53,854 nucleotides of DNA from a virus (Duplodnaviria > Caudoviricetes): positions 1 through 53,854 of the IMG/VR virus record IMGVR_UViG_3300021961_000135; one strand, 5' to 3'. A program made the position numbers and the translations under genes. This document shows, one piece after another, positions 8,735 through 39,667 of this stretch. How positions within the stretch are numbered: position 1 is the stretch's first letter; each line of letters starts with the position of its first letter. Below the pieces are notes generated by a model, which saw nothing but the letters and a program-made list of their open reading frames with translations, had not been told where the DNA came from and searched no databases.

Positions 8735-11700
8735 ATGGCTGACAAAATCCAACTCCCTAACGGTGCTTTCTTTCCAGTCAAAGAAGGCGAGAGCAAGGAA
8801 CAAACGTTGGCTGTGGCCAGACAGATGTACCCCGACGCTTTTGCCGCCCCCGTTGAGGCGGGCCCTAAGCAAGACACTACGGGTTTTAAAGCTGCCGCAT
8901 CTGCCGGTGCTACCCGCCTTGGCGGGGAGTTTGAATTGCTCAAAGGTAAGCTTGGGTTTAAAGACGAAGCTGAAGCGCAAAAAGAGTTTGAAGCCGCGCA
9001 GAAACGCGCACAAGCACGCTTTACCCCTACGGAAGAAGGCTGGACTGAGGCCCCGTTTCAGAAGTTTAAAGAGACGCTGGGGGGCTCGTTGCCGTACATG
9101 GCCGCTCCAGCCGCCGCAGGCCTTGCGGCTTTGGCTGCTCCTGTGTCTGCTCCCGTTGCGGCAGGTCTTGGTTTGTTGGGAGCAGGCGCTGTCTCTACCG
9201 GTCAGTTTACAGGCTCCAACCTTGCGCGTCAGATGGGGACAGACAAGTCGTTGGAAGAAACAAGCCTAGGTAAAGCCGTAGGCGCAGCTATTCCTCAAGC
9301 ACTATTGGACACAGCCGCCATGGCGCTGTTGCCCGGTGTGGGCAAATTGTTTGGCTCTGTTGGTTCTAAGCTGACAACAGACCAAGCCAAAGCTATTGCT
9401 TCCCAGACACTTACTCGCACTATTGCAGACTACACTGCAAAAACGGGTCTGGCTATGGGGCGTGAGGGCGTTACAGAAGCCACGCAACAAGTCCTTGAAC
9501 GGCTACAAGCTGGCCTAGCAATCACAGATGAAGAAGCGCGTAAAGAGTATATTGACAGCTTTATTGGCGGTGCGGTACTTGGCGGTGCAATTGCACCTAT
9601 TGGCCGGGCGTTTGAGCGTTCTGGAGCAAAACGGCAAGTAGCGGAGTTGGAGAAAACAGAAACACAGCAACGCCGTGCGGAAGAACTGCAAGCACAAAAA
9701 GCCGAAAAACAAGCCGCTATAGAAGCCGAAGAAGCTAAAAAAAGCACTTCCCAATACGCACTTGATGTTGACAGCCGCTTAGAAGCCGTTAAAGCCCAGA
9801 TCAAAGAATTAGATATTGCCAGTAAAGCCACGTTTGAAGAGGGTGATATTGCCGCTGAAACAGCTAAAAAAGAAGCACAGAAAGCCAAAAAAGCTTTACG
9901 CAATTCTGACGAAACTAAAGAGTTAATTAAAGAGTGGAACGAACTCAAACAAGCTGGACGCATTGACGCCGCTAAAGAAGAGCAACGCGTGGCCGGCATG
10001 TCGCCCGAAGAGTACGCGCTGTACCAAGCTGAGCAACAAAAACAAATCTCAGGCAAGCAAAAGATTAAACCTACAGAAGTGGGTATTGCCGATCCGTTTG
10101 CATCTGTGCCACCAGCGCCAGCACTTACAACTCAGTACGCCCAAGAGCGAATTAACTTAGCTAAACAGCAAGTGCCTGAGCAAGTGGCTTTGGCTATGCA
10201 AAAAGGGCCAGAGCAAGATTTTAATGTCTATGTAGATTACTTGATGGCCGACCCCTACATGGCGTCGCAATTAGTAAAAACACGTACGCCCCTACCGCTT
10301 TTAGTTGAGCCTCAAAAGAACCAAGAAAAACAAGCGCGGGATCAGAAAAAAGCAGAAGAAACTGTGTATGGCGGTTTGAATCTTCAACTAAAAGAACTAC
10401 GCCTACAAAAAGCCGCTGAAGCCGCGCGACCTAATGAAGCACGTTTAAAAAGTGTTGAAGATGAAGAGCAAGCCGCCATCCAAGCTAGCCGTGCGGCTGA
10501 AGCCCAAGCCGTTGAAAAAGCTGCTTTGCTTGAGCGCATGGCGCCTGAGATGCAGGCGCTTCAGCGCATTAAAAACGCGCCTTCTCCAATCACACAGAAC
10601 ATGGAGATGTTTAAGGGCGAAACCGCGCCCCCATCAGTGTCCCCTGCGTTTAGCCAACTACAGCAACGCTTACAGGGTATACCCTTAGAAAAAGGCACAC
10701 TGCCAACAGCCGAAGAGATTGTGCCGCCAGAAGAAGTTAAACGTGTTGTTACACGCGGTGAAGGCAAAGAGTTTAATCTTCGCCCCATTTCTGAGGTCAC
10801 TAAAGCCCCAATCACGGCAGAAAACTTACAAGGCCGTGTTAACCGCGCTTTGTCTGTCTTTGACTTGTCTCCAGAAGCCGAGACTTTCTTGCGCCGCGCT
10901 GAGCAGGTAATTCCGCAAGCAGACATGACGCTTAAGCAGGCCACATCAGGAGCAACAGATCAGGGCACGCGCCAAAACATTTCTGAGTCGCAGGGCTTCC
11001 TTACACTACTTGACAGACAGTTAGCCAAGATTGAAAGCGGTGAAGAGGGTATCCCACGCAAGGGTGCTGGTCGCCCCCAGATGTTGCAAACATTCCCTCC
11101 GACAAAACAGACGCAAGCACAGGTCAGCGCTACAACGCCAACAGAAGCGTTTAAGAAAGATGTTGATAGTATTACCGGAGCCGTTCCCGGACAAGCGCGG
11201 TCTGTGCCTCAGATGGAGATGTATGCCCAACGCGAGCGTTTAGAGCGTACAGGCAAGCCCGGCAAGTTGCCCGGCTTTGTGGCGCAGCCAGAAGAAGATC
11301 AACGCACACAAGGTGTGCCCGGTCGTGCCGTTGTTGAAAAACGTGCACAAGATATCAACCCCCCTGTTTACCGCACAGACCCTGTTACCGGCAAACGCGA
11401 AATGGTGTCTGGCACTATTCGCGGCAAGGGCGTGGAAGCAGTGCCACTGTCTTTGCAACGTGAGTTGGAGCCTTTGGTTCGTTTATCCGAGACAGTGCGC
11501 GATGAGCAAGCTGGACAATTGCCTTTGTTTGGTGCAGCCGATGAACGTAGCCGTGTACAGAAAGCAGAACGCCGTGGTATTGAAGCTGGCCCAAGCCTAG
11601 ATATTGGTGCAAGGCCAGACGTAGAGTCGTTCCAACGCTTTATGAACAGCCCATACGTTCGCAAGCTCAAGCAAGACATGCAGCAGTCTGAGAAAGACTT

Positions 11701-14700
11701 AGCCCCTGTCCGTGCGTTCTTAAACAGAGCGTTGCCGCGCCTGAAGCAGATGCTGCAAGACAGCAAAGCTACAACTGCCCGTATGAGCAAGATCAAGAAC
11801 TGGACTAAGTTCTTGAAAGAAAACCAAGAATTGACTGCGTTTCAGACCAACACTGAGAACATGGCGCTGAAGATGAACAATCTGAAGCTAAGTGTCAGTG
11901 ATCTGAACGCCCGTATTAAGTCGTACGAACAGGCTAAAGAAGAACTAATTAACGAAGCCAACCGCTCCGGCATACGCGCCAGAGGCGGCGCAGCAGAGAC
12001 TGCGATGCTCAAAGAGTTGGACGATCTGATTGCGTTGCACGAAGAAGCCAAGGCCGAGTACACCCAGACTAAAGGTGCGTTGGACTTGGTGCGTACACAG
12101 ATCAAAGTGTTGGTGGGCGAACAGCGCTTGGCTGAACTCAAGGCAACAGTTGATCCGTTGGAAAAGTCCAACGAATCTGCAAAAGCGGAAATTGAACGCC
12201 TGAAAGAAACAATCCGCACAGCACAAGCCGAGGTTGGAGAAGCCGAGACTAAAGAACGCCAAGCCGCCGCAGACAAAGCCCAAGCTGTACAAGGCGCTAA
12301 AGCTGGTTCTGTTGCCGCTTTGGAAAAACAAATCTCTGACGAGCGTGCACGTCGTTGGAACACAGCATTGTCTGGATTCCCCCAAGGTGTACAAGTACGT
12401 GCCCTAGGCCCTGCTGAACGGGATGCCCGTGAGCGTGGGTTGACTGCTGATGCATCGGAAGCCGTTAAATACAAAAACGAGTTGTACAACAAGCCGTTGA
12501 TATCTTTGATATTAGAGCTTGGTAATATAGACAAGCAGTTGGCTGAAGCAACAGCCAAAGTTACTGCCGCCCGTAAAAAGTCCGGCTCGTATGTGGGCGG
12601 TGAGCAAAACGTCATGGCGTTTAAAGGCTTAGGCTCTGCCATTCGTTTGCAAAGCCGTTTGTCTGTACGCAAAGAATCGGTTGAAAACGTAATTAATTTT
12701 ATGCGCGCGCGTAATGTGCCGCTTAGAAAAACACTTGGCGCACAACCTGAAGCTCGTTCAGCTAGCATTGAAGAACAGGACACACTTGACCAGTACATAG
12801 ATCAGGTGCAAGAGTTGGGCAAGGCAACAGACCGTCTTGCCGATCTTACTGTTCAACGTGATGATGCCATCAGGGACGGGAACACCAAAACTGTTGCACG
12901 CTTAAACGAACAGATTGACAAGGTCAACACTGAAATATCTGTTGGTACAGAAGGTAAGGCTAAACTGGCTGTTGCCCTACAAGGCCGTGTATCGGCTGGC
13001 GCCCGTCAAACTACCAGCGCTCCGGGCAAGTTCCGCACAGGTTCGGAAGAATCCAAACGCACTACCGGCTCCGTCAAACAGCCGTTGGTTGAGCAGCGAA
13101 CAATCAAGTCGCCTACAGTCAAACAGGCGGTGGCAGAAGCCAACGCATATGCAGAAAAGATCCGTGCTGGTCAGAAAGAATTGACCGCGGCACAGGAAGC
13201 GGCGATTGAAGCTGAGCGCCAAGCTGAGTTCCAGTACATACTTGAGAAACGTGAAGCGGATCTCACAACCAAGTTGGAAGAATCACAACGAGAGCTTGAG
13301 CGTCTGAGAGCTATTGACGCAAGGCCATACAGAGAAAACTTGGTTCGCCCTACTGAACAAGAAAAAACCGATCTTCAGAACGAGATCACCAGCTTTAGTA
13401 AAGAATTGGCAGCTGTCAAGCGTGAGTTGACAGAGCAGATGCGCAAGATGTATCGCAGTGACACATCTATCGTGGAAGAAGACATCGAAGCCGCAGAATC
13501 CAAGCCTCGCGGTCGCCCACGTAAACTGACTGAAGAAGATGTGTATGGCGAAGACACCCGCAAAGCTGCCGCTATGGAAGACGTCTATAGCCAACGAGAT
13601 GATGAAAGCTACGCCCGCGGTGTTGAATCTACTAGCCCAGACCTGACAGCCGCACAAGTGCGTGCGCTGGAAAAAAACGATCTACGCGCCGCTTTCACCG
13701 ATATGGCCAAAGACCCTGCCACATCGCAGGTCAACCGTGCCGTGGCACAACGCCTAGCCGACATGCTAGACGACACCAGTGTATCAATCCAAGACCGCGT
13801 ATTGGATGAGAACGGCAAAGCCGTGCTGGGTTCCGCTACTAGCCGCCGTATTAATCTGAGTCGTAATGGCGGGTTGTCACAAGAGATTTTGTTGCACGAA
13901 GGTACACACGCCGCAGTTGAGCGCGTGTTGCAGTTGCCTGAAGGCAAGCTGACTCAGCAACAAGTTGTTGCCAAACGTGAACTGCAAGCGCTGTACAACG
14001 CAATTAAGAGCGATCCAAAGATTACCAGCGCATCTGCCAAGGGCAGCATCTCTGAATTTGCCGCTGAAGTCATGTCCAACCAAACCTTACAGCGTCAGTT
14101 GCAAGGCAAGAAGTGGCGTCTGTCTGACGCGTGGGCTGGCTTCAAGAGCATCATCATGCGCTTGTTGGGCGTTCAGCGTCCAGAGACAATGTTTGGTGCA
14201 GCGCTTCAGTCTGTTGATGCGTTGATGATTCCATCTAGTGTGCGCACCAAGGGCGTTGAGCGGGTGGTGTCACGCAAACTGGCACAGAAAGACATTGCCG
14301 CGCTACATACCGGCAGTAACTCCATGAAGCAGTTTGCCGAACAGTTTGGCCCAGAGATCAAGCAGAAAGATCGCACAGCAGAAGACGCCAATCGCATTGG
14401 TGAGGACACGCTTGAGAAAATGTACAATTTTCCCAGCGATTACATTGCCAAACCTGACCCAGACAAGCTGGCTAAAAATGCCAAAGTTATTATGTCTGAC
14501 GGCAAACCGTACGACGAGAACAACCCCCTGCACTATGTGGAAGCTGATGCGCAAACGTTCATTAACTTGGAGCTACAAAAAAATAACCGCGTAATGCAGG
14601 ACTACGCGCAAAGCATTTACAGAAAAAGGCAACAAGATTTACGCCAGCTTGTATCGGATTTTTTAGATACTTCAGAGTACACGCGTGTTGAACAAGCGCT

Positions 14701-17700
14701 GGTGGCTAAAGCTGCGTCTAAGTACGCAGTGTTGTCAGATAAAGACGGGCGTTTAAAGCTGGCTGAAATGGGCAAAGACAACACGCACCATTTAGCGTTT
14801 GTCAGCAGTAAAGACGCAGGCGAAGTTATTCGCAAGTTGCGCGAAGGTTTGCCTTTGAAGCAAGCCTTCCTTGAAGGCATGCAAGAAGTTGCTGACCGCA
14901 ACGCAGAACAAAATGCACAGAAAAACGGCTGGCAAAAGTTTGAACAGAGCACTATTGTCAAACGTCCAGCAATACGGATTATGATGTACGCGCCAAACGG
15001 CGATGTAACTTTTGATACGATTGAACCACGCAACATGGTGCCTGCTGTTCCTGTAGGTGGTGCAGCCCGTGTAGCGGAGCCAATGTCGCTTGCAGAAAAT
15101 TTACGCCGCACGGCTCACGCAGCGTTAATTCGCCGTATTGAACCCGGCGCTTTAACAGAAGAACGTGAGCGTGAGCTTCCTTTTGAGGTGCCTTATTTTG
15201 CCTCACCAAGACCGCAAAGACTTGTGTTTGTAGACAACGATAAAAACGTCAAAGTATTGTCGTTGACGGTTGCACAACACGCATTATTGGAACACGAAAA
15301 CGCGCGCCTTGACGCAGAAGGCCAACCACGGTTGGGCACTGTTGATGAGGTCGCAGAGTTTTTACAAACTTACTACGACGAAATTTACTCCAAAGTAAAA
15401 CCTGTTGAGGAATCTGCTGCCGAACTTAATGCTGGCGCGGCTGGAACATCATGGTGTACTGGCGCTTCTGTGCAGACCGCTAGAAGTCAGATTGAGCAAG
15501 GCGACTTTTACATCTACTACAAGAACGGCAAACCTGAAGTGGCCGTTCGCATGGACGGTACAACAACTATTGGCGAAATCCGTGGCAACACGGAATCCCA
15601 AGGGCTTACAAGCGAACAAGAACTGATTGCCAAAGACTTTTTGTCCAGCACTAATTTTGCAGGTTCACAAAGCTACATCACTGCGCTAGAACGTAAACAA
15701 GCGTTGCTCAAAATATTAAAAGGTGATATTGATCCACGCTTCCTGATGACGCTTGGCCCGTACATATCTAGTTACGGAGCTAACGACACAACGGTAGAAA
15801 TGTTGCTGGACTACAGCGCAATTGATGGTGAGATGTTTGTGCGTCGCCCTGACCCATCAAGAAAGTTGATTGAAGCAGTCGGCGGCAAGCTTGAGGAAGC
15901 TACCGAAAAAGTGATGGAGCAAGGGTATTTCCCCGGAATGATTGCATGGATTGGGCTTAATGACGAACGGGGCTCCGATCAAATGTACCACGTCGTGCTT
16001 TCATATAAAGGCAACAGGGTAACTCGTCCTTTGGACGGCGTTGTTGCCGCGGGCAAGTTGTGCTTTGTTGGGGGCACTTACGAGTTACCTAACTTGAAAG
16101 ACGTTAACGCCGTATTCTTTGATGAGGAATCCGATGTTAGCCTGCCGCAAATAGATACAGTTGGTCTTGTTGAATTTGGCGGCGACAAACATGTTCATGT
16201 GTTGCGCCTAGCTGACAACGCCGTTGTTAACACGGTGGCCGTAGCGCCAATGGGCAGCTTTCGCACAAAACAAGAGCACACAAGAGTTCGCGGTATTATT
16301 AAAAACGCAACCGTAATCAGCAACATTGAAGTTAATAATGGCACCGCATCGATGGAATTATTGTTGCCAGACGCTTTGTACGCGCCTGTGCCCAATGAAA
16401 ACAACACGCAACAAGATGTTGCCGACAACAATTCGCGTCAACTACTGCGCTTTTTTAGAAAGCTTAACGACAAGCATGACTTCTATTCAATAGAGTATAA
16501 GACTGACGACCCTATGACGGTCAAAATGCGCAACGCCACACGAGAAGCGTTTGGTGAAGATGCCGTGACGTATGCGGACGATCTCACGTACGAGTCTACA
16601 AGTTTGCGTTCATGGCTTGAAGAATCTGTCATGGAGTATTTTGATTCACAGCAAGCTAAGTCAGACACTGACATTTTTAAACTTGCCAAAAAAATAAATA
16701 AAGCTTTTGACATTGCAAAAGAAGACGTAGAAAGAGTGTTGACCGATGACAGAAATCAGATTGGGAAGATTTTTGCGCCCAAGCAAATAGCTGACGCACC
16801 GCCAGTACTGCAGCTTATTGAGCCAGAAGAGACGCCACGTTACGCAAGGGCTGCGGACTATGGCACGGACAATGCGCTGGTTGACTTGGCCAAAGATGTC
16901 ATGGCCAAGAAGAAAACTTTTAAAGAAAAACTGGGCACAACCCCGTTCCTCGAAGCCGAGATGCAGTTGATCGACATGCGCGCTGGTTTGCGTGAGGCTT
17001 TGAAAGCTGGTGCTAAAGAAATTGGCGACGACAGGCTGTTCACACAGGCTATGTCTCATGTAATTATGGCTGACCAGAAAATGGCAATGACAAATGCCAC
17101 GCTTCAAAAGGGGCCAATGGAGTTGTACACCGACGAGAAAGGGTTCTACGGCGTAAGGTCTACTGGCAAAGACAGTGCTGTTGACGTGTTTAAGTCTGTT
17201 GCAGACATACCGCAAGGCAATTCAGAAGCAAAAGCTAACATAGCTACCATATACATGATTGCTCAGCGTGCACTGAATAAGGGCGTGGCTAAGCTAGACC
17301 TAGGTGCTTTGGGCGTTACAGAAGCAAAACTGAAAGCTGCGCTTGCTGCAGCCGATGCCGATCCAAAACTGAAATTGGCGCTGGAGAACACTCGTTCTGC
17401 GTACAACGCGTACAACGAAGGCCAGATTAAGTTCTTGGCATCGACTGGCGCTATTACCAAGAAGGAAGCCGACAGGCTTTTGAAAGAAGGCGACTTCGTA
17501 CCGTTCTATCGTGTTAACGAAAACGGCATGGCACAGTTGGTGTTCAGCGATGAAGTCACTGTGACCATCGGCGACGTGCGTCGTCAGCCATACTTGCAAG
17601 AACTCAAAGGCGGCGAGACCCGCATCTTGCCAATCACTGAGACAATACAACGCAACACCTTGCTTATCACGGACAAGGCGCTGACTAACTTGGCTACCAA

Positions 17701-19516
17701 GAACATAGCGTATGCGTTCCAAGCAATTGGTGAAGGCAAAGGGCCAGCAGGCAAGGACGGCAAGCCGACCAACGCCATGCCTATTCACATGGGCACAGGC
17801 CCCGCGTCTCCAGACGTTATCCGGTTTAACCAAGAACCTGACCCGAACAAACCAAACGACACGGGCGAGCGTTGGCAACGTGTGAAAACAGACGACACGC
17901 TCATGGGTGGTATCCCTGCGCAGTTAATCGTGAAGAGTTTGGAAGGCGCTCACTTGACGCTTCCAGCGTTCTTGAAAGCTGGTGGTTACGCCGCTGACAT
18001 CTTGCGCTCTGGCGTAACTCGTATGCCAATCTACTTGGCTCGTCAGTTGGTTCGTGACCCAATGGCTGCAGCGTTTACGGGCGGTTTGGACTACAACCCC
18101 CTGACAGCGGTGGTTAAAGCAGGCCGTGAGTTCATTGCTTCTAGCCGTGGACAGAGCGCAACCAACGAAGAAATGCTTAAGAAAGGTTTGATCCAGAGCG
18201 GTATCTTTACTGGCGACCCAGACGACATGGCTAAGATAGCACTTCAGTTGGCGGGCGGTAAAGACCAAGGCGTTCTTGACAAAGTGTTTGCCGCAGCGGA
18301 CAGAGCCGCGATGCGTGCCGATGCTGCTACTCGTGCGCTGGTGTATGAAAATGCACGCCGTCAAGGACTGTCTGAAGTTGAAGCGGACATGGCTGTTCGT
18401 GAGTCAATGAACTTTTACAAGCGCGGCTTGTCGCCCACAGTGCAATACGCTAGCCGTTTGATTCCGTTCTTTAACGCGCAGATTCAGGGCTTGAACGTGT
18501 TGTATAAAGCAGCCCGTGGCCAGACTACGCTAGAAGACCAGCGTTTTATTCAGCAGAAGTTCTTTAACAACGCCCTGTTGCTTGTCGGCACGGGTATTGT
18601 TTACGCCATGGCGATGGATGACGATCCATACTTCCGCAACGCCAAGCCAAGGGACAAGTACAGTAACTTCTTCTTGCCGTTGCCGGGTGTTGATGAGCCG
18701 TTGAAGCTGCCTATTCCTTACGAGGCTGGTTGGTTCTTCTCAATGGCTGTTGCCGCAGTTGACGCTATGAAAGAGGAGACTGATGGCGTCCAGCAATGGC
18801 AAGCTCTGCGCGACATGTTCTTGCAGTCCGTGCCGGGTTACTCGTCTAAGTTCATGCCCCAGATTGTCAAGCCAGCGTTTGAAGTGTGGACTAACAAGAA
18901 CTTCTTTAACAACACATCCATTGAGTCTGCAAGAATGGAGAGGCTGTCGCCCGAACAGCGCTTCTCGGAGACAACAACGGAAGCCGCCAAAGCTATGGGT
19001 AAAGCAGTTCCAATACTGTCTCCAATACAGATTGAGCACATTGCTACAGGCTACTTTGGTCAGTTGCCGCTGATTATCGCGGGCGCTGCAAACAGCTTGT
19101 TCCGTACCGAGACTCGTGGTGAAGCGCCTGAAAAGCGTGTGACTGACTTGCCCTTTATTGGCAGTTCGTTCCAGAAGAAGTATGGCGGTGCAGACACCGA
19201 TGTGATGTACCGCTTGTCAACCGAAGCTGTGCAGGCTAAGTCTACCTTTGACAGCCTGCGCAAAAAGGGGCAGGTGACGGAAGCCAAAGATTACTTGGAA
19301 GACAACCGCGTATTGATTGCATCAGCACCCATAGCGCGTAACTACCAGAACATCATGGGTAAACTTCGCTCTGATGCGGAACGCATTAACAGCATGGAAA
19401 ATTTGAGCGGTGCTGAAAAACGTGCGCGGTTGGATAGGATTGACGCGGCACGACAGGATGTGGCTGACAAGTTTGAGAAAGCTATGAAGCGGCTACGAGA
19501 CGGCGATAGAACATAA
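8735..19516 (+). CDS. Giant polyvalent virion protein (zincin HExxH domain, PcfJ-like domain, C-terminal LPD38-like domain)
   Basis: 3593 aa. N-terminal hydrophobic Gly/Ala segment and coiled coils; EILLHEGTHAAV...EFAAE; SWCT...GDFYIYY...VAVRM; C-terminal IPFFNAQIQG...LPIPYEAG...KPAFEVWTNKNFF...SPIQIEH. Confidence 0.75.
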   Translation: MADKIQLPNGAFFPVKEGESKEQTLAVARQMYPDAFAAPVEAGPKQDTTGFKAAASAGATRLGGEFELLKGKLGFKDEAEAQKEFEAAQKRAQARFTPTEEGWTEAPFQKFKETLGGSLPYMAAPAAAGLAALAAPVSAPVAAGLGLLGAGAVSTGQFTGSNLARQMGTDKSLEETSLGKAVGAAIPQALLDTAAMALLPGVGKLFGSVGSKLTTDQAKAIASQTLTRTIADYTAKTGLAMGREGVTEATQQVLERLQAGLAITDEEARKEYIDSFIGGAVLGGAIAPIGRAFERSGAKRQVAELEKTETQQRRAEELQAQKAEKQAAIEAEEAKKSTSQYALDVDSRLEAVKAQIKELDIASKATFEEGDIAAETAKKEAQKAKKALRNSDETKELIKEWNELKQAGRIDAAKEEQRVAGMSPEEYALYQAEQQKQISGKQKIKPTEVGIADPFASVPPAPALTTQYAQERINLAKQQVPEQVALAMQKGPEQDFNVYVDYLMADPYMASQLVKTRTPLPLLVEPQKNQEKQARDQKKAEETVYGGLNLQLKELRLQKAAEAARPNEARLKSVEDEEQAAIQASRAAEAQAVEKAALLERMAPEMQALQRIKNAPSPITQNMEMFKGETAPPSVSPAFSQLQQRLQGIPLEKGTLPTAEEIVPPEEVKRVVTRGEGKEFNLRPISEVTKAPITAENLQGRVNRALSVFDLSPEAETFLRRAEQVIPQADMTLKQATSGATDQGTRQNISESQGFLTLLDRQLAKIESGEEGIPRKGAGRPQMLQTFPPTKQTQAQVSATTPTEAFKKDVDSITGAVPGQARSVPQMEMYAQRERLERTGKPGKLPGFVAQPEEDQRTQGVPGRAVVEKRAQDINPPVYRTDPVTGKREMVSGTIRGKGVEAVPLSLQRELEPLVRLSETVRDEQAGQLPLFGAADERSRVQKAERRGIEAGPSLDIGARPDVESFQRFMNSPYVRKLKQDMQQSEKDLAPVRAFLNRALPRLKQMLQDSKATTARMSKIKNWTKFLKENQELTAFQTNTENMALKMNNLKLSVSDLNARIKSYEQAKEELINEANRSGIRARGGAAETAMLKELDDLIALHEEAKAEYTQTKGALDLVRTQIKVLVGEQRLAELKATVDPLEKSNESAKAEIERLKETIRTAQAEVGEAETKERQAAADKAQAVQGAKAGSVAALEKQISDERARRWNTALSGFPQGVQVRALGPAERDARERGLTADASEAVKYKNELYNKPLISLILELGNIDKQLAEATAKVTAARKKSGSYVGGEQNVMAFKGLGSAIRLQSRLSVRKESVENVINFMRARNVPLRKTLGAQPEARSASIEEQDTLDQYIDQVQELGKATDRLADLTVQRDDAIRDGNTKTVARLNEQIDKVNTEISVGTEGKAKLAVALQGRVSAGARQTTSAPGKFRTGSEESKRTTGSVKQPLVEQRTIKSPTVKQAVAEANAYAEKIRAGQKELTAAQEAAIEAERQAEFQYILEKREADLTTKLEESQRELERLRAIDARPYRENLVRPTEQEKTDLQNEITSFSKELAAVKRELTEQMRKMYRSDTSIVEEDIEAAESKPRGRPRKLTEEDVYGEDTRKAAAMEDVYSQRDDESYARGVESTSPDLTAAQVRALEKNDLRAAFTDMAKDPATSQVNRAVAQRLADMLDDTSVSIQDRVLDENGKAVLGSATSRRINLSRNGGLSQEILLHEGTHAAVERVLQLPEGKLTQQQVVAKRELQALYNAIKSDPKITSASAKGSISEFAAEVMSNQTLQRQLQGKKWRLSDAWAGFKSIIMRLLGVQRPETMFGAALQSVDALMIPSSVRTKGVERVVSRKLAQKDIAALHTGSNSMKQFAEQFGPEIKQKDRTAEDANRIGEDTLEKMYNFPSDYIAKPDPDKLAKNAKVIMSDGKPYDENNPLHYVEADAQTFINLELQKNNRVMQDYAQSIYRKRQQDLRQLVSDFLDTSEYTRVEQALVAKAASKYAVLSDKDGRLKLAEMGKDNTHHLAFVSSKDAGEVIRKLREGLPLKQAFLEGMQEVADRNAEQNAQKNGWQKFEQSTIVKRPAIRIMMYAPNGDVTFDTIEPRNMVPAVPVGGAARVAEPMSLAENLRRTAHAALIRRIEPGALTEERERELPFEVPYFASPRPQRLVFVDNDKNVKVLSLTVAQHALLEHENARLDAEGQPRLGTVDEVAEFLQTYYDEIYSKVKPVEESAAELNAGAAGTSWCTGASVQTARSQIEQGDFYIYYKNGKPEVAVRMDGTTTIGEIRGNTESQGLTSEQELIAKDFLSSTNFAGSQSYITALERKQALLKILKGDIDPRFLMTLGPYISSYGANDTTVEMLLDYSAIDGEMFVRRPDPSRKLIEAVGGKLEEATEKVMEQGYFPGMIAWIGLNDERGSDQMYHVVLSYKGNRVTRPLDGVVAAGKLCFVGGTYELPNLKDVNAVFFDEESDVSLPQIDTVGLVEFGGDKHVHVLRLADNAVVNTVAVAPMGSFRTKQEHTRVRGIIKNATVISNIEVNNGTASMELLLPDALYAPVPNENNTQQDVADNNSRQLLRFFRKLNDKHDFYSIEYKTDDPMTVKMRNATREAFGEDAVTYADDLTYESTSLRSWLEESVMEYFDSQQAKSDTDIFKLAKKINKAFDIAKEDVERVLTDDRNQIGKIFAPKQIADAPPVLQLIEPEETPRYARAADYGTDNALVDLAKDVMAKKKTFKEKLGTTPFLEAEMQLIDMRAGLREALKAGAKEIGDDRLFTQAMSHVIMADQKMAMTNATLQKGPMELYTDEKGFYGVRSTGKDSAVDVFKSVADIPQGNSEAKANIATIYMIAQRALNKGVAKLDLGALGVTEAKLKAALAAADADPKLKLALENTRSAYNAYNEGQIKFLASTGAITKKEADRLLKEGDFVPFYRVNENGMAQLVFSDEVTVTIGDVRRQPYLQELKGGETRILPITETIQRNTLLITDKALTNLATKNIAYAFQAIGEGKGPAGKDGKPTNAMPIHMGTGPASPDVIRFNQEPDPNKPNDTGERWQRVKTDDTLMGGIPAQLIVKSLEGAHLTLPAFLKAGGYAADILRSGVTRMPIYLARQLVRDPMAAAFTGGLDYNPLTAVVKAGREFIASSRGQSATNEEMLKKGLIQSGIFTGDPDDMAKIALQLAGGKDQGVLDKVFAAADRAAMRADAATRALVYENARRQGLSEVEADMAVRESMNFYKRGLSPTVQYASRLIPFFNAQIQGLNVLYKAARGQTTLEDQRFIQQKFFNNALLLVGTGIVYAMAMDDDPYFRNAKPRDKYSNFFLPLPGVDEPLKLPIPYEAGWFFSMAVAAVDAMKEETDGVQQWQALRDMFLQSVPGYSSKFMPQIVKPAFEVWTNKNFFNNTSIESARMERLSPEQRFSETTTEAAKAMGKAVPILSPIQIEHIATGYFGQLPLIIAGAANSLFRTETRGEAPEKRVTDLPFIGSSFQKKYGGADTDVMYRLSTEAVQAKSTFDSLRKKGQVTEAKDYLEDNRVLIASAPIARNYQNIMGKLRSDAERINSMENLSGAEKRARLDRIDAARQDVADKFEKAMKRLRDGDRT

Positions 19517-22997: not shown

Positions 22998-23477
22998 TTA
23001 CTTGGCCATTGCCTTCATCACTTTTTCCAACATGCCTGATGCTTCTAGTGCGGCTAGGCGCTCCAGACTGTTGACAAGAGACTCAGCTTGCTTGGCTGTT
23101 TCGGCAAAGTTGGTGTTGCCTGCCACCTTGTTGAACCGCTCAATCGCAACACCGAGCTTCTCAGCCCCGTCACGCATCTTGCCGTTCACATCATTAAGAT
23201 GTTTGTTAGATTCCTTCGCTTGCTCAACCAGAGCGTTGGTGCTCTTGAGAAGAGCGTCTGTCAACGCATCAGCGTCTTCTTTAGTTTTTTCTAGTGCAGA
23301 CATAAGTTTTCCTAGTGGTTCGCGTTCATTAAGGTATATGCCGCCATCAGCAGCCATAGTAGACAGATGATGGAAATCGTGCCACCCACCCGAAGCAGTG
23401 GTGTAGCCCTGTTGTTTAATCTGACGCAAAGCGCCAGCAGTCAGGCCTCTCGTGTTTGCAGGAAAAATAATTGCCAT
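22998..23477 (-). CDS. Coiled-coil hypothetical protein (start 23477 or 23303)
   Basis: Helical heptad pattern. The internal ATG at 23303 has an AGGA Shine-Dalgarno; the ATG at 23477 has none. Confidence 0.6.
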   Translation of the reverse strand: MAIIFPANTRGLTAGALRQIKQQGYTTASGGWHDFHHLSTMAADGGIYLNEREPLGKLMSALEKTKEDADALTDALLKSTNALVEQAKESNKHLNDVNGKMRDGAEKLGVAIERFNKVAGNTNFAETAKQAESLVNSLERLAALEASGMLEKVMKAMAK

Positions 23478-23486
23478 AGTGTTAGG

Positions 23487-23561
23487 TGGGGGTTGGGTGG
23501 GGATCGAACCCACCACTCCACAGTGCGTGCCGGAATCGAACCGGCCCTTTTACCAACCCCC
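23487..23561 (-). ncRNA. tRNA-like RNA with two T-arms
   Basis: GGGGGTTGG TAAAAGG GCCGG-TTCGATT-CCGGC ACG CACT-GTGG-AGTG GTGGG-TTCGATC-CCCAC CCAACCCCC A. All four helices are perfectly paired. Confidence 0.7.
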
Positions 23562-31642: not shown

Positions 31643-31869
31643 GCTTGTCCCCTTGCTCGGATGGCTTTCAAAACCCGATCACTTAGTGCTTTATCTGCGC
31701 CAAGTAATGCAAGACCAGCCGTATTGGCACACGCCTCACGCTCCTCGGCAACGACCCGCTCAACAAGGGTCATCAGGTGCTGAGTACTACAGTGCCACGA
31801 CTTGTACTCACGATTTTGATCTATGGCCTCATGCAACATAAAGGCTACTTGTTCTGCGTTGTATTTCAT
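31639..31869 (-). CDS. Hypothetical protein
   Basis: AEEREACA...AIRARG module; coupled ORF. Confidence 0.7.
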   Translation of the reverse strand: MKYNAEQVAFMLHEAIDQNREYKSWHCSTQHLMTLVERVVAEEREACANTAGLALLGADKALSDRVLKAIRARGQA

Positions 31870-32213
31870 GACTGCCCCCTTAACTTCAAGCCGCGCTCAT
31901 TTAAACGCTCAATGATTTCTCTTAAGCTTTTGCGTCCTAAATTTGGAGTCTTAAGCAGGCGTTGCTCGGTGCACCCAAGTAACTGCGTGATGGTGTAAAT
32001 TTCTTCTGCTTTCAAGCAATGCTCAGACCTAACAGTCAGCCCAAGGGCTTCAATCCCATCAAATACAACAGCCTCAGCCATTGCCCATTTATTCAGGATT
32101 TCCTGTCTGCGCTCTATCATGTCTTCCGCAACACGGTAAGCATCACGGGCTGATTGCGGGGAAACCCTCAATACCTCAAGCGCTAAATGGTCAAGTAATT
32201 CTTCTTTAGTCAT
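31866..32213 (-). CDS. RNA polymerase alpha-subunit C-terminal domain homologue
   Basis: IEALGLTVRSEHCLKAEEIYTITQLL...LLKTPNLGRKSLREI...RGLKL aligns by eye with the RpoA CTD (LELTVRSANCLKAE...LLKTPNLGKKSLTEI). Confidence 0.9.
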   Translation of the reverse strand: MTKEELLDHLALEVLRVSPQSARDAYRVAEDMIERRQEILNKWAMAEAVVFDGIEALGLTVRSEHCLKAEEIYTITQLLGCTEQRLLKTPNLGRKSLREIIERLNERGLKLRGQS

Positions 32214-32473
32214 TGGTAGTCCTTGCATGAATGGTGTTTAGCATCTTCACGGTCTGTCCATGTACCTGTGCAACCTGTACACTTAAACTTGCCTGCGGTG
32301 ATTGAAAACTTACCCGTCAACCTTGGCTCAGGCAGTTCAAGTTGTTCTGCATAAATGCGCTCACGCTCGGCAGAAGCGACAAGGGCGGCAAAGCGTCTTA
32401 GCGCTCCATGATCTCCATCCATGCCAACAAACCCTGCCTCTTGTGCCATGCGAGTGATGTCTTCTCTGTTCAT
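32210..32473 (-). CDS. Hypothetical protein with C2H2-like Zn finger
   Basis: C-terminal FKCTGC...W....AKHHSC. Confidence 0.65.
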   Translation of the reverse strand: MNREDITRMAQEAGFVGMDGDHGALRRFAALVASAERERIYAEQLELPEPRLTGKFSITAGKFKCTGCTGTWTDREDAKHHSCKDYQ

Positions 32474-37585: not shown

Positions 37586-39667
37586 TTAAACAGGTTGATC
37601 GGCAGACACTTCGTACGAGCACTGCGCCATAGTTGCCGCGAATGACTCGTTCATAAGAACCCACAACTCATTGACACGCATATACACGACATCGCCAGCA
37701 GCGATGGTGTCCATGTCGCCGTACGGGAAGAACGCATACTCAGAGCCTGCGTATGTAGCGAAGCGGAAGTACAGGTTGTTGCGCTCTACCCATGTCCTGA
37801 TGGTCTCAGCCTCGCTGTCGTAGGGTATGTGCATGGGGTAGTCATGGTTGTGCCTGTGCTCTGTGTACTGAGGTTGCCACGGGGCAGGGGGCACAGCGTC
37901 AGCGCAGGTCTCTGAAGCAGGTGCGATGACTGTTGGCGTAGAGGTATGTATCTGACGCACGCCATACCACTTGGTCAGCGCAGGGTACTGGCCGACAACA
38001 GTACGAAGCCACTTGATGAACGATGCACCATTGAGATCACGCCACGATGCGACACGGCAGAACATGACAGCGGCATGAGTGAACTCGATCTGTGCAAGGA
38101 GGCGTTCTTTCTTGAGTGATGCACGGAAGATGCGAAGCTCGACAGTGTTGTACTTGCCGTTGTAGCTGTTGTCCATGCTAAGACCAAGACGCAGAGCCTC
38201 ACGCTTGCCAAGGTTCATCATGTTGACCATGCGATAGCGCTCACCAGACTTATTCTTGACAGCCTGCTTGGGGTTGACAAGTATGGACTGATGCTCAGCG
38301 GCGCAGTAGCTACGGGCTTGGTCATCGACAGATGGATGGCGACCAGCAATCTTACGAATGAAGTCGACATTGCCGTTGCTGTTGATGAACATGAGGAACT
38401 TGCCAAGCGTCAACTGCGTGAAGGCACGAGAGTCAATGTGGATGTGCATACCGCACTTGCCCGTGTTCCATGCACGATAGGCAGGGTCAATGTCCCAAGC
38501 CTTGAATGTCTCGATGTGCTTGGTCAAGCCGTGTGGCATGGTCACAACCTCGAAGCCGTTGTGCGGTAGAGAGCCGTCACTCTTGATGATGCAGTATGAG
38601 GAACCGAGACGGCTACGCACAGACTCAGCGGCTGGGTGAGTATCGCTGTCACCCGAAGTCATCTCAAGCTCGATGCCCATCGTGAACTCCCCGAAGTGAG
38701 AAGACCTGATGCCTGAGTCGGAGTCAAGCACATTGAGCACATTGGTAGAGTACGACATGATTGGCTGATCTCTATCGTCGTCATCGCTGTCTTCATCATC
38801 GTCGCTGTCGTCACGATCATAGGTGTAGTAGCAGTCGTCACGATCACTGTAGTACGCATCGTCACGAGGCCAGTACTCATCGTTGTCCTCGCAGTACACA
38901 GCGTCATCCTCGAAGCATGAGTCACACCAAGTATCACGGCGCACATCGTGCGTGTTGTTCTCGTCTTCGTAGTGACCGCAGTCGCAGTGCACGATGCCCA
39001 TGTCCATGTCATTGATGGCATTGAACGCGCTGTCCAAGTGACTGTTGAAGTCGCCGTAGCGGTTGGATAAGTCAAAGAACGAGGTGCGTATCTCATCATT
39101 GCTGATGGACTCATCGCCTGCCTTGGCACGAGCAACGAGATGCCCGAAGTTCTTGAACGAACTGCGTATGAGGTTGTACCCATCATTGCTGAAGTGATGA
39201 CCGCCCTTGAACACAGCGTGTGGGTTATCAGTGTGACCAGCATACGCAACAGGATCATGCTTGCGTGCATAAGCCTCAACGACCTGATCGATACGCACAG
39301 ACAGCCTACTGCGAGCAAGTCGTGGCATATCATCCATGAGTTTAGGTGTCAGCAGTCTACGCATCATCTGATGCATATCGTAGCGATCACGGCTCTCATC
39401 ACTAGCCTCCTTGTATGTGATGGCACGAGGTGCATGAGCAAGATCACCTCTGACACGATAGCGTGAGACGCGAGTCCACAGCGCAAGGTTGTCGTTGGTA
39501 AGCAGATCAAGCGGTGACTTGAAGTTTGCTGACATAGAGTCACTGACAGTCAAGCGCCTACGAGATGCGTTGTACACCATGTAGCGGTTGTTGAGTGACA
39601 CGACAAACATGATGGCGTTGGAAGAGTCAATGAAGTCTTCCATAACAAAGCGAGTGAATTGAAACAT
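37586..39667 (-). CDS. Putative amidoligase (COOH-NH2 ligase, Amidoligase_2-like) with Cys-rich and acidic N-terminal extension
   Basis: GIELEM, KSDGSL, GFEVVT, CGMHIHI, RYRMVN, TVELRIF; upstream CDC/CDSC and a poly-Asp tract. Confidence 0.85.
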   Translation of the reverse strand: MFQFTRFVMEDFIDSSNAIMFVVSLNNRYMVYNASRRRLTVSDSMSANFKSPLDLLTNDNLALWTRVSRYRVRGDLAHAPRAITYKEASDESRDRYDMHQMMRRLLTPKLMDDMPRLARSRLSVRIDQVVEAYARKHDPVAYAGHTDNPHAVFKGGHHFSNDGYNLIRSSFKNFGHLVARAKAGDESISNDEIRTSFFDLSNRYGDFNSHLDSAFNAINDMDMGIVHCDCGHYEDENNTHDVRRDTWCDSCFEDDAVYCEDNDEYWPRDDAYYSDRDDCYYTYDRDDSDDDEDSDDDDRDQPIMSYSTNVLNVLDSDSGIRSSHFGEFTMGIELEMTSGDSDTHPAAESVRSRLGSSYCIIKSDGSLPHNGFEVVTMPHGLTKHIETFKAWDIDPAYRAWNTGKCGMHIHIDSRAFTQLTLGKFLMFINSNGNVDFIRKIAGRHPSVDDQARSYCAAEHQSILVNPKQAVKNKSGERYRMVNMMNLGKREALRLGLSMDNSYNGKYNTVELRIFRASLKKERLLAQIEFTHAAVMFCRVASWRDLNGASFIKWLRTVVGQYPALTKWYGVRQIHTSTPTVIAPASETCADAVPPAPWQPQYTEHRHNHDYPMHIPYDSEAETIRTWVERNNLYFRFATYAGSEYAFFPYGDMDTIAAGDVVYMRVNELWVLMNESFAATMAQCSYEVSADQPV

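What the first reader, a model, noticed from the sequence alone, without database searches (positions are those of the whole stretch)
23487..23561. tRNA mimic with two T-arms and no anticodon, inside the replication operon
Seen: on the - strand, a 75-nt intergenic element starts 7 nt after the stop of the SSB-like gene. It folds into a perfect four-way junction: 9-bp closing stem GGGGGUUGG/CCAACCCCC ending ...CCA; arm 1 GCCGG-UUCGAUU-CCGGC; a 4-bp tetraloop hairpin CACU-GUGG-AGUG; arm 2 GUGGG-UUCGAUC-CCCAC stacked on the acceptor-like stem. Both 5-bp/7-nt arms are canonical TpsiC arms with different stem sequences, so this is not a simple duplication. UA follows the 5' stem as in tRNA U8-A9, but there is no D-arm and no 7-nt anticodon loop. 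Established: paired T-loops form tRNA-elbow-binding platforms (RNase P, T-box, L1 stalk), and tRNA mimics such as YrlA Y RNAs and mascRNA are processed by or decoy tRNA enzymes. Inference: a non-decoding phage RNA acting as a decoy for tRNA-targeting defences, or an RNase P/Z processing signal; the next ORF's upstream ATG lies 9 nt after the CCA and lacks an SD.
Basis: partly seen in the sequence, partly recalled or inferred. Interest (0 to 1): 0.85.

Follow-up and report, generated by a model that had tools for sequence, protein, structure and literature searches.

The report
Two-T-arm tRNA-like RNA cassette in phage
A 77-base stretch between two replication genes of an uncultivated phage encodes a conserved tRNA-shaped RNA with two T-arms and no anticodon, and it is one of many swappable structured-RNA cassettes found at this spot and in tRNA-like gene arrays of other phages.

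Summary
At 23485-23561 on the minus strand there is a 9-bp acceptor-like stem, two 5-bp/7-nt T-arm hairpins, a 4-bp tetraloop hairpin and an A-C-C tail. ARAGORN and Rfam do not call it.

It is not chance or tRNA debris. The T-arm core motif occurs twice in the window against 0.01 expected. Relatives keep all four helices through compensatory changes: 10 of 24 pairs in 18 sequences, with 0 of 500 shuffles reaching the observed score.

The wider result is that the spacer after this gene is hypervariable among close relatives. One fixed frame (AAUC-G5...C5-ACC) holds about ten unrelated cargos or a plain hairpin.

The same two-T-arm cargo also sits inside tRNA-type arrays of other uncultivated phages. 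Those arrays share acceptor-like stems and linkers and stand beside real tRNAs.

Best reading: an accessory, non-decoding, tRNA-derived small RNA, cut out by host tRNA-processing enzymes. Processing and the target in trans are inferred, not shown. No RNA-end data exist. I found no description in Rfam or in the paper searches.

The parts
23485..23561 (-). whole two-T-arm tRNA-like element (P1, J, H1, H2, H3, P1', ACC tail)
   Evidence: Sequence. MFE and centroid fold. The family shows covariation.
23553..23561 (-). P1 5' strand GGGGGUUGG (acceptor-like). The inner GUUGG equals the X-frame of the arrays, and the outer G4 equals the site frame.
   Evidence: The U-A pair at P1 pair 6 is C-G in 3 of 9 and U.G in 1 of 9 C-type sequences.
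23546..23552 (-). junction UAAAAGG. The two G's before H1 are invariant and the preceding A nearly so in 21 C- and D-type sequences.
   Evidence: Invariant and nearly invariant columns of alignment A1.
23529..23545 (-). H1: T-arm-like hairpin GCCGG-UUCGAUU-CCGGC
   Evidence: In D-type relatives the stem covaries (C-G/U-A at two pairs) and the outer pair is G.U in 13 of 18.
23514..23525 (-). H2: 4-bp hairpin CACU-GUGG-AGUG
   Evidence: CAAU/AUUG in L087. Three of its 4 pairs show compensatory changes in D-type sequences, where the loop is GUGA in 17 of 18.
23497..23513 (-). H3: T-arm GUGGG-UUCGAUC-CCCAC, placed directly on the 3' strand of P1 as in tRNA
   Evidence: GCGGG/CCCGC in the linker-captured L382.
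23488..23496 (-). P1 3' strand CCAACCCCC
23485..23487 (-). tail A-C-C (in the place of a tRNA discriminator plus CC), followed by U
   Evidence: ACC follows the closing C-run in 33 of 33 framed spacers of relatives.
   Evidence: Used as the anchor for 80 related loci.
22998..23477 (-). downstream gene P0002 (no family match; start has no Shine-Dalgarno sequence)

Best explanation
**What it is.** The element is a selectively maintained structured RNA read from the gene-sense (minus) strand. It is a tRNA-derived, non-decoding 'two-T-arm' module. It keeps the top half of a tRNA: an acceptor-like stem, with a T-arm placed directly on that stem's 3' strand. A second T-arm and a small G-rich hairpin replace the D and anticodon arms.

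**Where it sits.** It is an accessory, interchangeable cassette.
- In this phage clade it sits in a fixed frame (AAUC-G5 ... C5-ACC). That frame probably descends from a plain hairpin still seen after the homologous gene in cultured relatives.
- In other uncultivated phages the same module is a unit of tRNA-type gene arrays. The units of those arrays share two acceptor-like stems and conserved linkers, and real tRNAs stand among them.

**Mechanism (inferred, not shown).**
1. It is transcribed with the replication genes.
2. Host tRNA-maturation enzymes cut it out: RNase P at the first G, then RNase E and exonucleases at the ACC tail, with or without the CCA-adding enzyme.
3. The product is a stable RNA of about 77-80 nt.
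4. The two T-loops, with the conserved GG of the junction and the H2 loop, build an elbow-like top without a D arm.
5. The RNA then acts in trans on a host factor that reads the tRNA top half.

Cleavage would also separate the upstream mRNA from the SD-less downstream gene.
For: **Structure and motif.**
- The fold is as described.
- The T-arm core motif occurs 2 times against 0.01 expected.

**Covariation.**
- 18 D-type sequences: 95.5% of cells paired and 10 of 24 pairs with changes on both sides, in all four helices. No shuffle of 500 reached the observed covariation score, and slid controls scored 0.055 or less against 0.257.
- 9 C-type sequences: 97.6% paired and 2 compensatory pairs.
- G.U pairs make the structure strand-specific.

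**Captures that did not use T-loop sequence.** The module was found by the neighbouring protein (L052, L057, L073, L074) and by the array linker (L443, L405, L382). All seven have T-loop-like loops in both arms.

**tRNA kinship.**
- The best Rfam match is tRNA-Sec over the full model, at 25.8 bits.
- X-frame units L411 (48.6 bits) and L405:1921-2033 (35.4 bits) pass Rfam's tRNA threshold.
- A tRNA-Thr stands between an X unit and a Y unit in L413.

**Accessory and exchangeable.**
- 76 relatives anchored by protein have an informative spacer. Of these, 25 carry a plain hairpin, 35 the frame with about ten cargo types, 13 another element and 3 a small ORF first.
- The window and L002 have near-identical flanking genes and the same frame, but unrelated cargo.

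**Processing signals.**
- ACC follows the stem in 33 of 33 framed spacers.
- In arrays the base before each unit is U, although the search pattern fixed this for X units.
- Bacterial RNase P pairs with the 3' RCCA and prefers U(-1). It also cleaves non-tRNA substrates, including phage P1/P7 C4 RNA and polycistronic mRNAs (passages read in PMC4919922).
Against: - No transcript, RNA end or processing data exist. The RNA-library data were contigs only.
- The acceptor plus T stack is 9+5 = 14 bp, not the 12 bp that elbow-measuring enzymes expect.
- The tail is ACC-U, not CCA.
- Array X units mostly end AAC (53 of 103).
- The base at -1 at this site is C in 33 of 33, not the preferred U.
- Folding-energy z is only -2.04.
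- A plain hairpin serves 25 of 76 relatives, so the element is dispensable.
- The inner pairs and loops of H1 and H3 were fixed by my search patterns in most collected sequences, so their constancy is partly by construction.
- The promoter scan tool did not call the -10/-35 boxes I picked by eye upstream of the stand-alone units.
- No tRNA-related enzyme was found among the 27 phage ORFs scanned.
Confidence: 0.55

Rival explanations
1. It acts only in cis as punctuation or a stabiliser. It is a stable structure that ends or protects the upstream mRNA, or frees the SD-less downstream gene after cleavage. The cargo sequence would matter only as a compact fold.
For: - A plain hairpin occupies the same place in 25 of 76 relatives and in cultured relatives.
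- The downstream start lacks a Shine-Dalgarno sequence.
- RNase P is known to cut polycistronic mRNAs (PMC4919922).
Against: - The same cargo is kept, with T-loop-like loops and compensatory changes, in unrelated contexts: within arrays, behind my eye-picked promoter-like boxes that the scan tool did not call, and after other genes.
- There is no U run after the stem in the window, and the terminator scan calls nothing on the minus strand here.
Confidence: 0.2
2. It is a tRNA-binding platform rather than a mimic. The two T-loops would interdigitate, as in RNase P, T-box stem I and the L1 stalk, and stack on the elbow of host tRNAs, sequestering or sensing them.
For: - It has two T-loops in one compact junction.
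- The review PMC4810234 (passages read) states that three RNAs use two interdigitated T-loops to bind the elbow, and expects more examples.
- The H2 loop GUGG contains UGG, which could pair with an NCCA end.
Against: - The known motif uses pentaloop T-loops set in internal or apical loops, not two full 7-nt T hairpins.
- The H2 loop is GUGA in 17 of the 18 D-type sequences, so it has no UGG there.
- H3 stacks on an acceptor-like stem exactly as in tRNA, which fits mimicry better.
- The 3D arrangement cannot be tested with these tools.
Confidence: 0.07
3. It is a decoding, D-armless class II tRNA. H1 would be the anticodon arm (CGA here, UGA in D-type relatives, both serine) and H2 the long variable arm.
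For: - Rfam's tRNA-Sec model aligns it this way.
- CGA and UGA are both serine anticodons.
- SerRS reads the variable arm rather than the anticodon (recalled).
Against: - Position 37 would be U. It is almost always a purine in tRNAs (recalled).
- The H1 loop follows the T-loop consensus letter for letter. In the AT-rich relative L153 both loops read UUCAAUU together.
- The acceptor stem is 8-10 bp and there is no D arm.
- ARAGORN finds nothing in either its bacterial or its mitochondrial mode at default thresholds.
- The score is 25.8 bits against a gathering score of 47.
Confidence: 0.04
4. It is non-functional debris: fused 3' halves of tRNA genes, or the remnant of an attachment site.
For: - T-arm sequences are typical of bacterial tRNAs.
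- Many hits of my loose two-T-arm patterns are tRNA ends next to tRNA fragments, for example L085.
Against: - Both strands of the closing stem are present and covary, as do H1, H2 and H3.
- The module is kept in several genome contexts.
- No integrase was seen among the ORFs scanned.
- I could not compare it with host tRNA genes.
Confidence: 0.05
5. It is a DNA-level element: a single-strand hairpin cluster serving replication or recombination, such as a priming site or the recombination site for cassette exchange.
For: - It lies in the replication module.
- Cargo is swapped exactly inside a G5/C5 inverted repeat, so the frame may also serve recombination.
Against: - T-loop sequences and tRNA kinship point to RNA.
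- G.U pairs hold only on the gene-sense strand.
- Several units begin about 7 nt behind promoter-like -10 boxes that I picked by eye. The scan tool did not call these.
Confidence: 0.04

Closest known systems
Phage tRNA genes and tRNA gene arrays
   Same: - Acceptor-like stem with a T-arm directly on its 3' strand, and canonical T-loop sequence.
- An A after the stem.
- Relatives lie in arrays that contain a true tRNA-Thr and units passing Rfam's tRNA threshold.
- Other two-T-arm elements lie inside phage tRNA arrays.
   Different: - No D arm and no credible anticodon loop.
- A 9-bp stem.
- Not called by ARAGORN or Rfam.
- The array units share only two acceptor-like stems and have hypervariable bodies.
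tRNA mimics processed by tRNA enzymes: mascRNA/MEN-beta, bacterial YrlA Y RNA, phage P1/P7 C4 RNA
   Same: Non-decoding RNAs with an acceptor/T-like top that RNase P (and RNase Z) cut from longer transcripts (PMC4919922 passages). YrlA details come from the abstract in the search listing of PMC4201824 and from recall.
   Different: - mascRNA scores 14.7 bits, E = 1.1, against a gathering score of 42.5.
- There is no long Ro-binding stem, and no rsr gene was seen among the ORFs scanned.
- None of these mimics has two T-arms or sits in a swappable cassette frame.
- Processing is untested here.
Interdigitated double T-loop module (RNase P S-domain, T-box stem I, L1 stalk)
   Same: Two T-loop motifs close together in one RNA (PMC4810234).
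   Different: - Those are pentaloops inside larger loops, and they bind a tRNA elbow.
- Here there are two full T-arm hairpins in a tRNA-like four-way junction.
- The 3D arrangement is unknown.
Selenocysteine tRNA and allo-tRNAs with long acceptor stems
   Same: A long (8-9 bp) acceptor stem and an extra arm before the T-arm. tRNA-Sec is the best Rfam match. For allo-tRNAs I saw only the abstract of PMC5389517 in the listing.
   Different: - The stack is 14 bp, not 12-13 bp.
- No D arm and no UCA anticodon.
- The score is below threshold.
Intrinsic terminator or mRNA 3' stabiliser hairpin
   Same: It occupies the place of a plain GC hairpin found in 25 of 76 relatives and in cultured relatives.
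   Different: There is no U run after the stem in the window, and a 59-nt structured insert lies inside the stem.

Membership tests
Canonical tRNA (Rfam RF00005 / ARAGORN) | Cloverleaf with a D arm, a 7-nt anticodon loop (U33, purine 37), a T-arm and a 7-bp acceptor stem, scoring above the detector thresholds | tested here: not met
   - ARAGORN finds 0 genes in the window.
- It also finds none in the 251-nt segment with default bacterial or mitochondrial settings. Only at a lowered threshold (ps80) does it give an odd 72-nt 'tRNA-Arg(acg)'.
- Rfam finds nothing at the gathering score.
Canonical tRNA (Rfam RF00005 / ARAGORN) | T-arm (5 bp, loop UUCRANY) directly 5' of the acceptor 3' strand | tested here: met
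   H3 is GUGGG-UUCGAUC-CCCAC, with 0 nt before CCAACCCCC.
tRNA-Sec (RF01852) | Score at or above 47 bits, UCA anticodon, long D stem | tested here: not met
   25.8 bits, E = 0.0017. The D arm is deleted in the alignment and the loop reads UUCGAUU.
tmRNA | tRNA-like domain plus a tag reading frame | tested here: not met
   ARAGORN finds no tmRNA, and Rfam finds none at the gathering score.
mascRNA/menRNA (RF01684) | Score at or above 42.5 bits | tested here: not met
   14.7 bits, E = 1.1.
Bacterial Y RNA (YrlA) | Long Ro-binding stem, a tRNA-like domain with D and T arms, and a neighbouring rsr gene | tested here: inconclusive
   - No Rfam hit.
- No TROVE/Rsr match among the 27 ORFs scanned, but not every ORF was scanned.
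- The element has no long bulged stem.
Interdigitated double T-loop tRNA-elbow receptor | Two T-loops that intercalate into each other and present a flat stacking face | not testable with these tools
   Only the secondary structure is available. Two T-loop sequences are present.
Intrinsic terminator | GC-rich hairpin followed at once by a U run | tested here: not met
   The tail is ACCUAACACU, and there is no minus-strand terminator call at this place. The feature is met in the plain-hairpin relatives.
RNase P substrate of the C4/CI type (phage RNAs cut from leaders) | Acceptor-like stem with a 3' RCC(A), and cleavage by RNase P at its 5' end | not testable with these tools
   The stem plus ACC is present and conserved in 33 of 33. 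Cleavage itself needs an assay.
New family proposed here: two-T-arm module (C and D types) | P1, then a junction ending in GG, then H1 (T-like), H2 (3-4 bp with a G-rich loop) and H3 (T-arm) abutting P1', with helices kept through compensatory changes | tested here: met
   Alignments A1 to A4 and pair counts.

The most novel reading that the evidence does not exclude
The element is one cargo of an undescribed and widespread phage system of modular structured-RNA cassettes.

- Dozens of unrelated small RNA bodies are each closed by one of two conserved tRNA-acceptor-like stems: X (GUUGG..CCAAC) and Y (GGGGAUUG..CAGUCCCC).
- The units are joined by conserved linkers and strung in alternating arrays beside real tRNAs, or dropped singly into a hairpin loop as here.
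- The shared stems and linkers would serve two purposes. They would be the handle by which host tRNA-maturation enzymes release each RNA, and the short homology by which cassettes are swapped between phages.
- The cargos would form a fast-evolving arsenal of trans-acting RNAs. The two-T-arm cargo would be a tRNA top-half mimic aimed at a host factor or defence that reads the tRNA elbow.
Probability: 0.3. Interest if true: 0.88.

Novelty: new variant of a known kind. Interest (0 to 1): 0.74.

Why it matters
Phage tRNAs are now known to counter defences that cut host tRNAs (abstracts of PMC11555353 and PMC13096335, seen in the listing). A phage RNA that keeps only the tRNA top half, with a second T-loop in place of the D arm, would be a new and minimal way to build a tRNA elbow. 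It would also be a candidate RNA decoy.

The context may matter more than the element itself. Near-identical phages carry different structured RNAs in the same frame.

If these RNAs are released by tRNA-processing enzymes, they form a large, unannotated class of accessory phage genes made of RNA. That would offer a ready set of natural scaffolds for RNA expression, and a test bed for how RNase P and related enzymes read non-tRNA substrates.

Tried and rejected
**Searches that found nothing.**
- DNA searches of cultured phage genomes found nothing for the locus in near or distant mode, and nothing for an X/Y array.
- Rfam at gathering scores found nothing on the window or on 17 related loci.
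- On 20 and 13 further loci Rfam found only tRNA and tmRNA calls.

**RNA evidence.** One run search and one laying gave only assembled contigs. RNA-library contigs of relatives stop at 23493, where the homology ends. This shows neither a transcript end nor absence of one, so it is not used as evidence.

**Promoters.** The scan tool called none of the -10/-35 boxes I picked by eye upstream of the stand-alone units. They match 8 of 12 positions. I keep them only as a weak hint.

**'N4-like phage'.** I assumed this early from the 3593-aa ORF. That ORF matches only PHROGs of unknown function, and the nearest cultured relatives are not N4-like. I dropped the label.

**'ACACGCATGGGG' as a gene start.** I first read it that way, then rejected it. 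It is the array linker plus the next unit's stem.

**The GAA/AGUA motif.** I first read it as part of the frame. It belongs to one cargo family, which also occurs in X frames.

**The census class 'no spacer'.** This class (3 loci) was wrong for L002, which has a small ORF and then a framed cassette. L035 and L036 were not rechecked.

**Not done.**
- No covariance model was built.
- The att-remnant reading could not be tested against host tRNA genes.
- No 3D prediction of RNA is available.
The catalogue of 10,006 candidate viral RNAs (PMC10690425; passages read) may list this motif in its supplementary tables, which I could not see.

**Literature.** Keyword searches found no description of a two-T-arm phage RNA or of such arrays. 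That covers only the held library.
Full report
**1. The observation.**
On the minus strand the upstream gene ends at TAA 23571-23569. After UUGAAUC comes a 77-nt element, 23561-23485. RNAfold returns the same four-way junction as both MFE and centroid, at -38.5 kcal/mol. Its parts are:
- P1: GGGGGUUGG paired with CCAACCCCC.
- Junction: UAAAAGG.
- H1: GCCGG-UUCGAUU-CCGGC.
- Linker: ACG.
- H2: CACU-GUGG-AGUG.
- H3: GUGGG-UUCGAUC-CCCAC, abutting the 3' strand of P1.
- Tail: A-C-C.

Energy alone is unremarkable: z = -2.04, and 7 of 200 shuffles fold as well. The T-arm core GGTTCGATYCC, however, occurs twice in the whole window on both strands, both times here. The expectation is 0.01, and 0 of 100 shuffles give two matches.

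The detectors do not call it:
- ARAGORN finds no tRNA or tmRNA in the window. It also finds none in the segment in default bacterial or mitochondrial modes.
- Rfam finds nothing at gathering scores.
- With loose thresholds the best Rfam match is tRNA-Sec over the whole model, at 25.8 bits against a gathering score of 47. H1 is placed at the anticodon arm, H2 at the variable arm, and the D arm is deleted. mascRNA scores 14.7 bits.

The next ATG (23477) has no Shine-Dalgarno sequence. About 20 of 32 other starts that I listed have one, judged by eye.

**2. The setting.**
The window is a viral record estimated at 83% complete. Around the element lie a helicase, a primase/helicase, a family A DNA polymerase and an exonuclease, so 'replication operon' holds.

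The upstream protein has no Pfam match and hits only PHROGs of unknown function. 'SSB-like' is therefore unverified.

My early label 'N4-like' is withdrawn. The 3593-aa ORF matches only PHROGs of unknown function. The nearest cultured relatives of the upstream protein, at 27-33% identity, are Pseudomonas phage Rollin, the KPP25 group, Rhizobium phages and Xp15.

**3. A hypervariable cassette site.**
Searching viral contigs with the upstream protein confirmed 582 relatives among 600 candidate stretches. The best 80 were kept, at 79-100% identity. The spacer after the gene differs sharply among them:
- 4 loci are cut off.
- 25 have a plain GGGGGC-UUCG-GCCCCC hairpin followed by a U run.
- 33 have the frame AAUC-G(4-6)...C(4-5)-ACC around about ten unrelated inserts of about 40-120 nt. 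Two more are partial or variant.
- 13 carry a different element of about 130 nt.
- 3 have a small ORF first.

Four of the framed spacers hold the two-T-arm insert:
- L052 and L057 differ from the window by one base.
- L073 and L074 hold a second version (D type) in a longer stem.

ACC follows the closing C-run in 33 of 33 framed spacers, and C precedes the G-run in 33 of 33.

The window and L002 have near-identical flanking genes and the same frame, yet wholly different cargo. L002 also has a small ORF inserted ahead of the frame.

Cultured relatives have only a plain GC hairpin after the homologous gene. The frame therefore probably descends from that hairpin.

**4. The two-T-arm module is a family.**
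A pattern for both arms found 18 viral stretches:
- 16 of C or D type.
- 1 related module nested in a larger RNA (L097).
- 1 false positive made of neighbouring tRNA ends (L085).

They also gave 12 stretches in genome contigs, mostly metagenome-assembled genomes. These hits are mixed, but they add further C and D variants.

Pair counts:
- 18 D-type sequences: 95.5% of cells paired and 10 of 24 pairs with changes on both sides (P1 4, H1 2, H2 3, H3 1). The covariation score is 0.257 against 0.107 in shuffles, with 0 of 500 reaching it. Slid controls score 0.055 or less (an earlier set is).
- 9 C-type sequences: 97.6% paired and 2 compensatory pairs.

G.U pairs make the fold specific to the gene-sense strand. 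The clearest case is the outer pair of H1, which is G.U in 13 of 18.

One caution applies. Most sequences were found with patterns that fixed the loops and the inner pairs of H1 and H3. The seven modules captured without any T-loop pattern still have T-loop-like loops in both arms. Four of them were found through the neighbouring protein and three through the array linker. L382 among them brings new stems in H1 and H3.

**5. Arrays.**
Stand-alone D-type units lie in two kinds of place. Some sit just behind promoter-like boxes that I picked by eye, which the scan tool did not call. Others lie in arrays of closed units. Two kinds of unit alternate:
- X: GUUGG...CCAAC followed by A.
- Y: GGGGAUUG...CAGUCCCC followed by A.

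They are joined by the conserved linkers ..ACACGCAU| and ..GCCGU|.

It gave 122 matches and 103 distinct units, a few of which are chance hits in coding DNA. The tail is AAC in 53 of the 103.

Among 83 distinct Y units, the 8 closing pairs are all formed in 69 and 7 are formed in 12, with compensatory variants.

The cargos are many, and some recur at the cassette site of section 3. The frames are tRNA acceptor stems:
- X units L411 (48.6 bits) and L405:1921-2033 (35.4 bits) pass Rfam's tRNA threshold.
- A tRNA-Thr(UGU) stands between an X unit and a Y unit in L413.

The window's element reads as an X unit (GUUGG..CCAAC) set inside the G4/C4 site frame. Other two-T-arm elements with different bodies lie inside ordinary phage tRNA arrays.

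**6. What it most likely is and does.**

Shown:
- It is a conserved, strand-specific structured element of tRNA ancestry.
- It is accessory and exchangeable.

Inferred:
- It is transcribed with the operon and released by host tRNA-maturation enzymes.
- The grounds are the acceptor-like stem with a T-arm stacked on it, the conserved ACC tail at this site, the U before each array unit, and the company of real tRNAs.
- Bacterial RNase P pairs with the 3' RCCA and prefers U(-1). It cuts non-tRNA substrates such as P1/P7 C4 RNA and polycistronic mRNAs (PMC4919922, passages read).
- E. coli polycistronic tRNA precursors are cut by RNase E just after the CCA and then by RNase P (abstract of PMC2190699, seen in the listing).
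- The second T-loop, the invariant GG before H1 and the G-rich H2 loop could supply what the D loop gives a tRNA elbow. This is pure inference.

The target in trans is unknown. The rapid cargo turnover fits an arms-race role, but it proves nothing.

Against processing:
- The stack is 14 bp rather than 12 bp.
- The tail is ACC-U rather than CCA.
- The base at -1 here is C.
- There are no RNA-end data.

**7. Rivals.**
- A purely cis-acting punctuation or stabiliser role is the main rival. The plain hairpins in relatives favour it. Conservation of this cargo across unrelated contexts argues against it.
- A tRNA-binding double T-loop platform cannot be excluded without a 3D structure (PMC4810234).
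- A decoding D-armless serine tRNA is unlikely. Position 37 would be U, and the H1 loop tracks the T-loop consensus, as in L153 where both loops read UUCAAUU. The detectors also reject it.
- tRNA debris or an att remnant is contradicted by the covariation.
- A DNA-level role for the inverted-repeat frame in cassette exchange may coexist with the RNA role.

**8. Known or new.**
No Rfam family covers the element. Keyword searches of the held papers found no description.

I file the element as a new variant of a known kind, namely tRNA-like RNAs of phages. The cassette and array system around it may be new as a system.

Noticed in passing
L094, L258, L300, L328, L335, L405, L413 and about 120 loci L349-L468: Arrays of alternating closed-stem RNA units (X: GUUGG..CCAAC; Y: GGGGAUUG..CAGUCCCC) with conserved linkers and hypervariable bodies. 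Some bodies are tRNA-like, and real tRNAs stand among them. The arrays lie near early promoters, before cro-like genes or before terminase genes.
   Followed up: partly
13 of 80 related loci (e.g. L013:3988-4120, L016, L038): At the same site there is a different conserved element of about 130 nt. It is closed by GCUAGG/CCUAGC and has a variable middle part. It has no Rfam match, and its function is unknown.
   Followed up: no
L097:8683-8824, L172, L198, L230, L343 (a Streptomyces genome): An RNA of about 150 nt with three T-arms. A two-T-arm junction is nested inside a larger tRNA-like frame that ends in its own T-arm and acceptor strand.
   Followed up: no
window 31866-32228 (-): A 120-aa phage protein carries a bacterial RNA polymerase alpha C-terminal domain (PF03118, E = 3.5e-19). 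It may be a mimic or competitor of the host alpha-CTD.
   Followed up: no
window 8735-19516 (+): A 3593-aa ORF matches only PHROGs of unknown function, and only in its last 500 or so residues. It is not shown to be an N4-type virion RNA polymerase.
   Followed up: partly
window 37586-39667 (-): A 693-aa protein has an amidoligase-like domain (PF12224).
   Followed up: no
L002:3978-4200, also L053, L086, L099: A small ORF with a hydrophobic stretch (about 70 aa, with a strong Shine-Dalgarno sequence) comes and goes beside the cassette. It lies before the cassette in L002 and after it in L053, L086 and L099.
   Followed up: no
L264:2690-2787: Inside a phage tRNA array, a unit has a D arm, a short 5-nt-loop arm and two T-arms. 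It just reaches Rfam's tRNA threshold at 29.9 bits.
   Followed up: no
window 4427-4464 (-): CCCCCACC occurs three times within 38 bases, inside the ORF at 2882-5230. It is probably a coding repeat.
   Followed up: no
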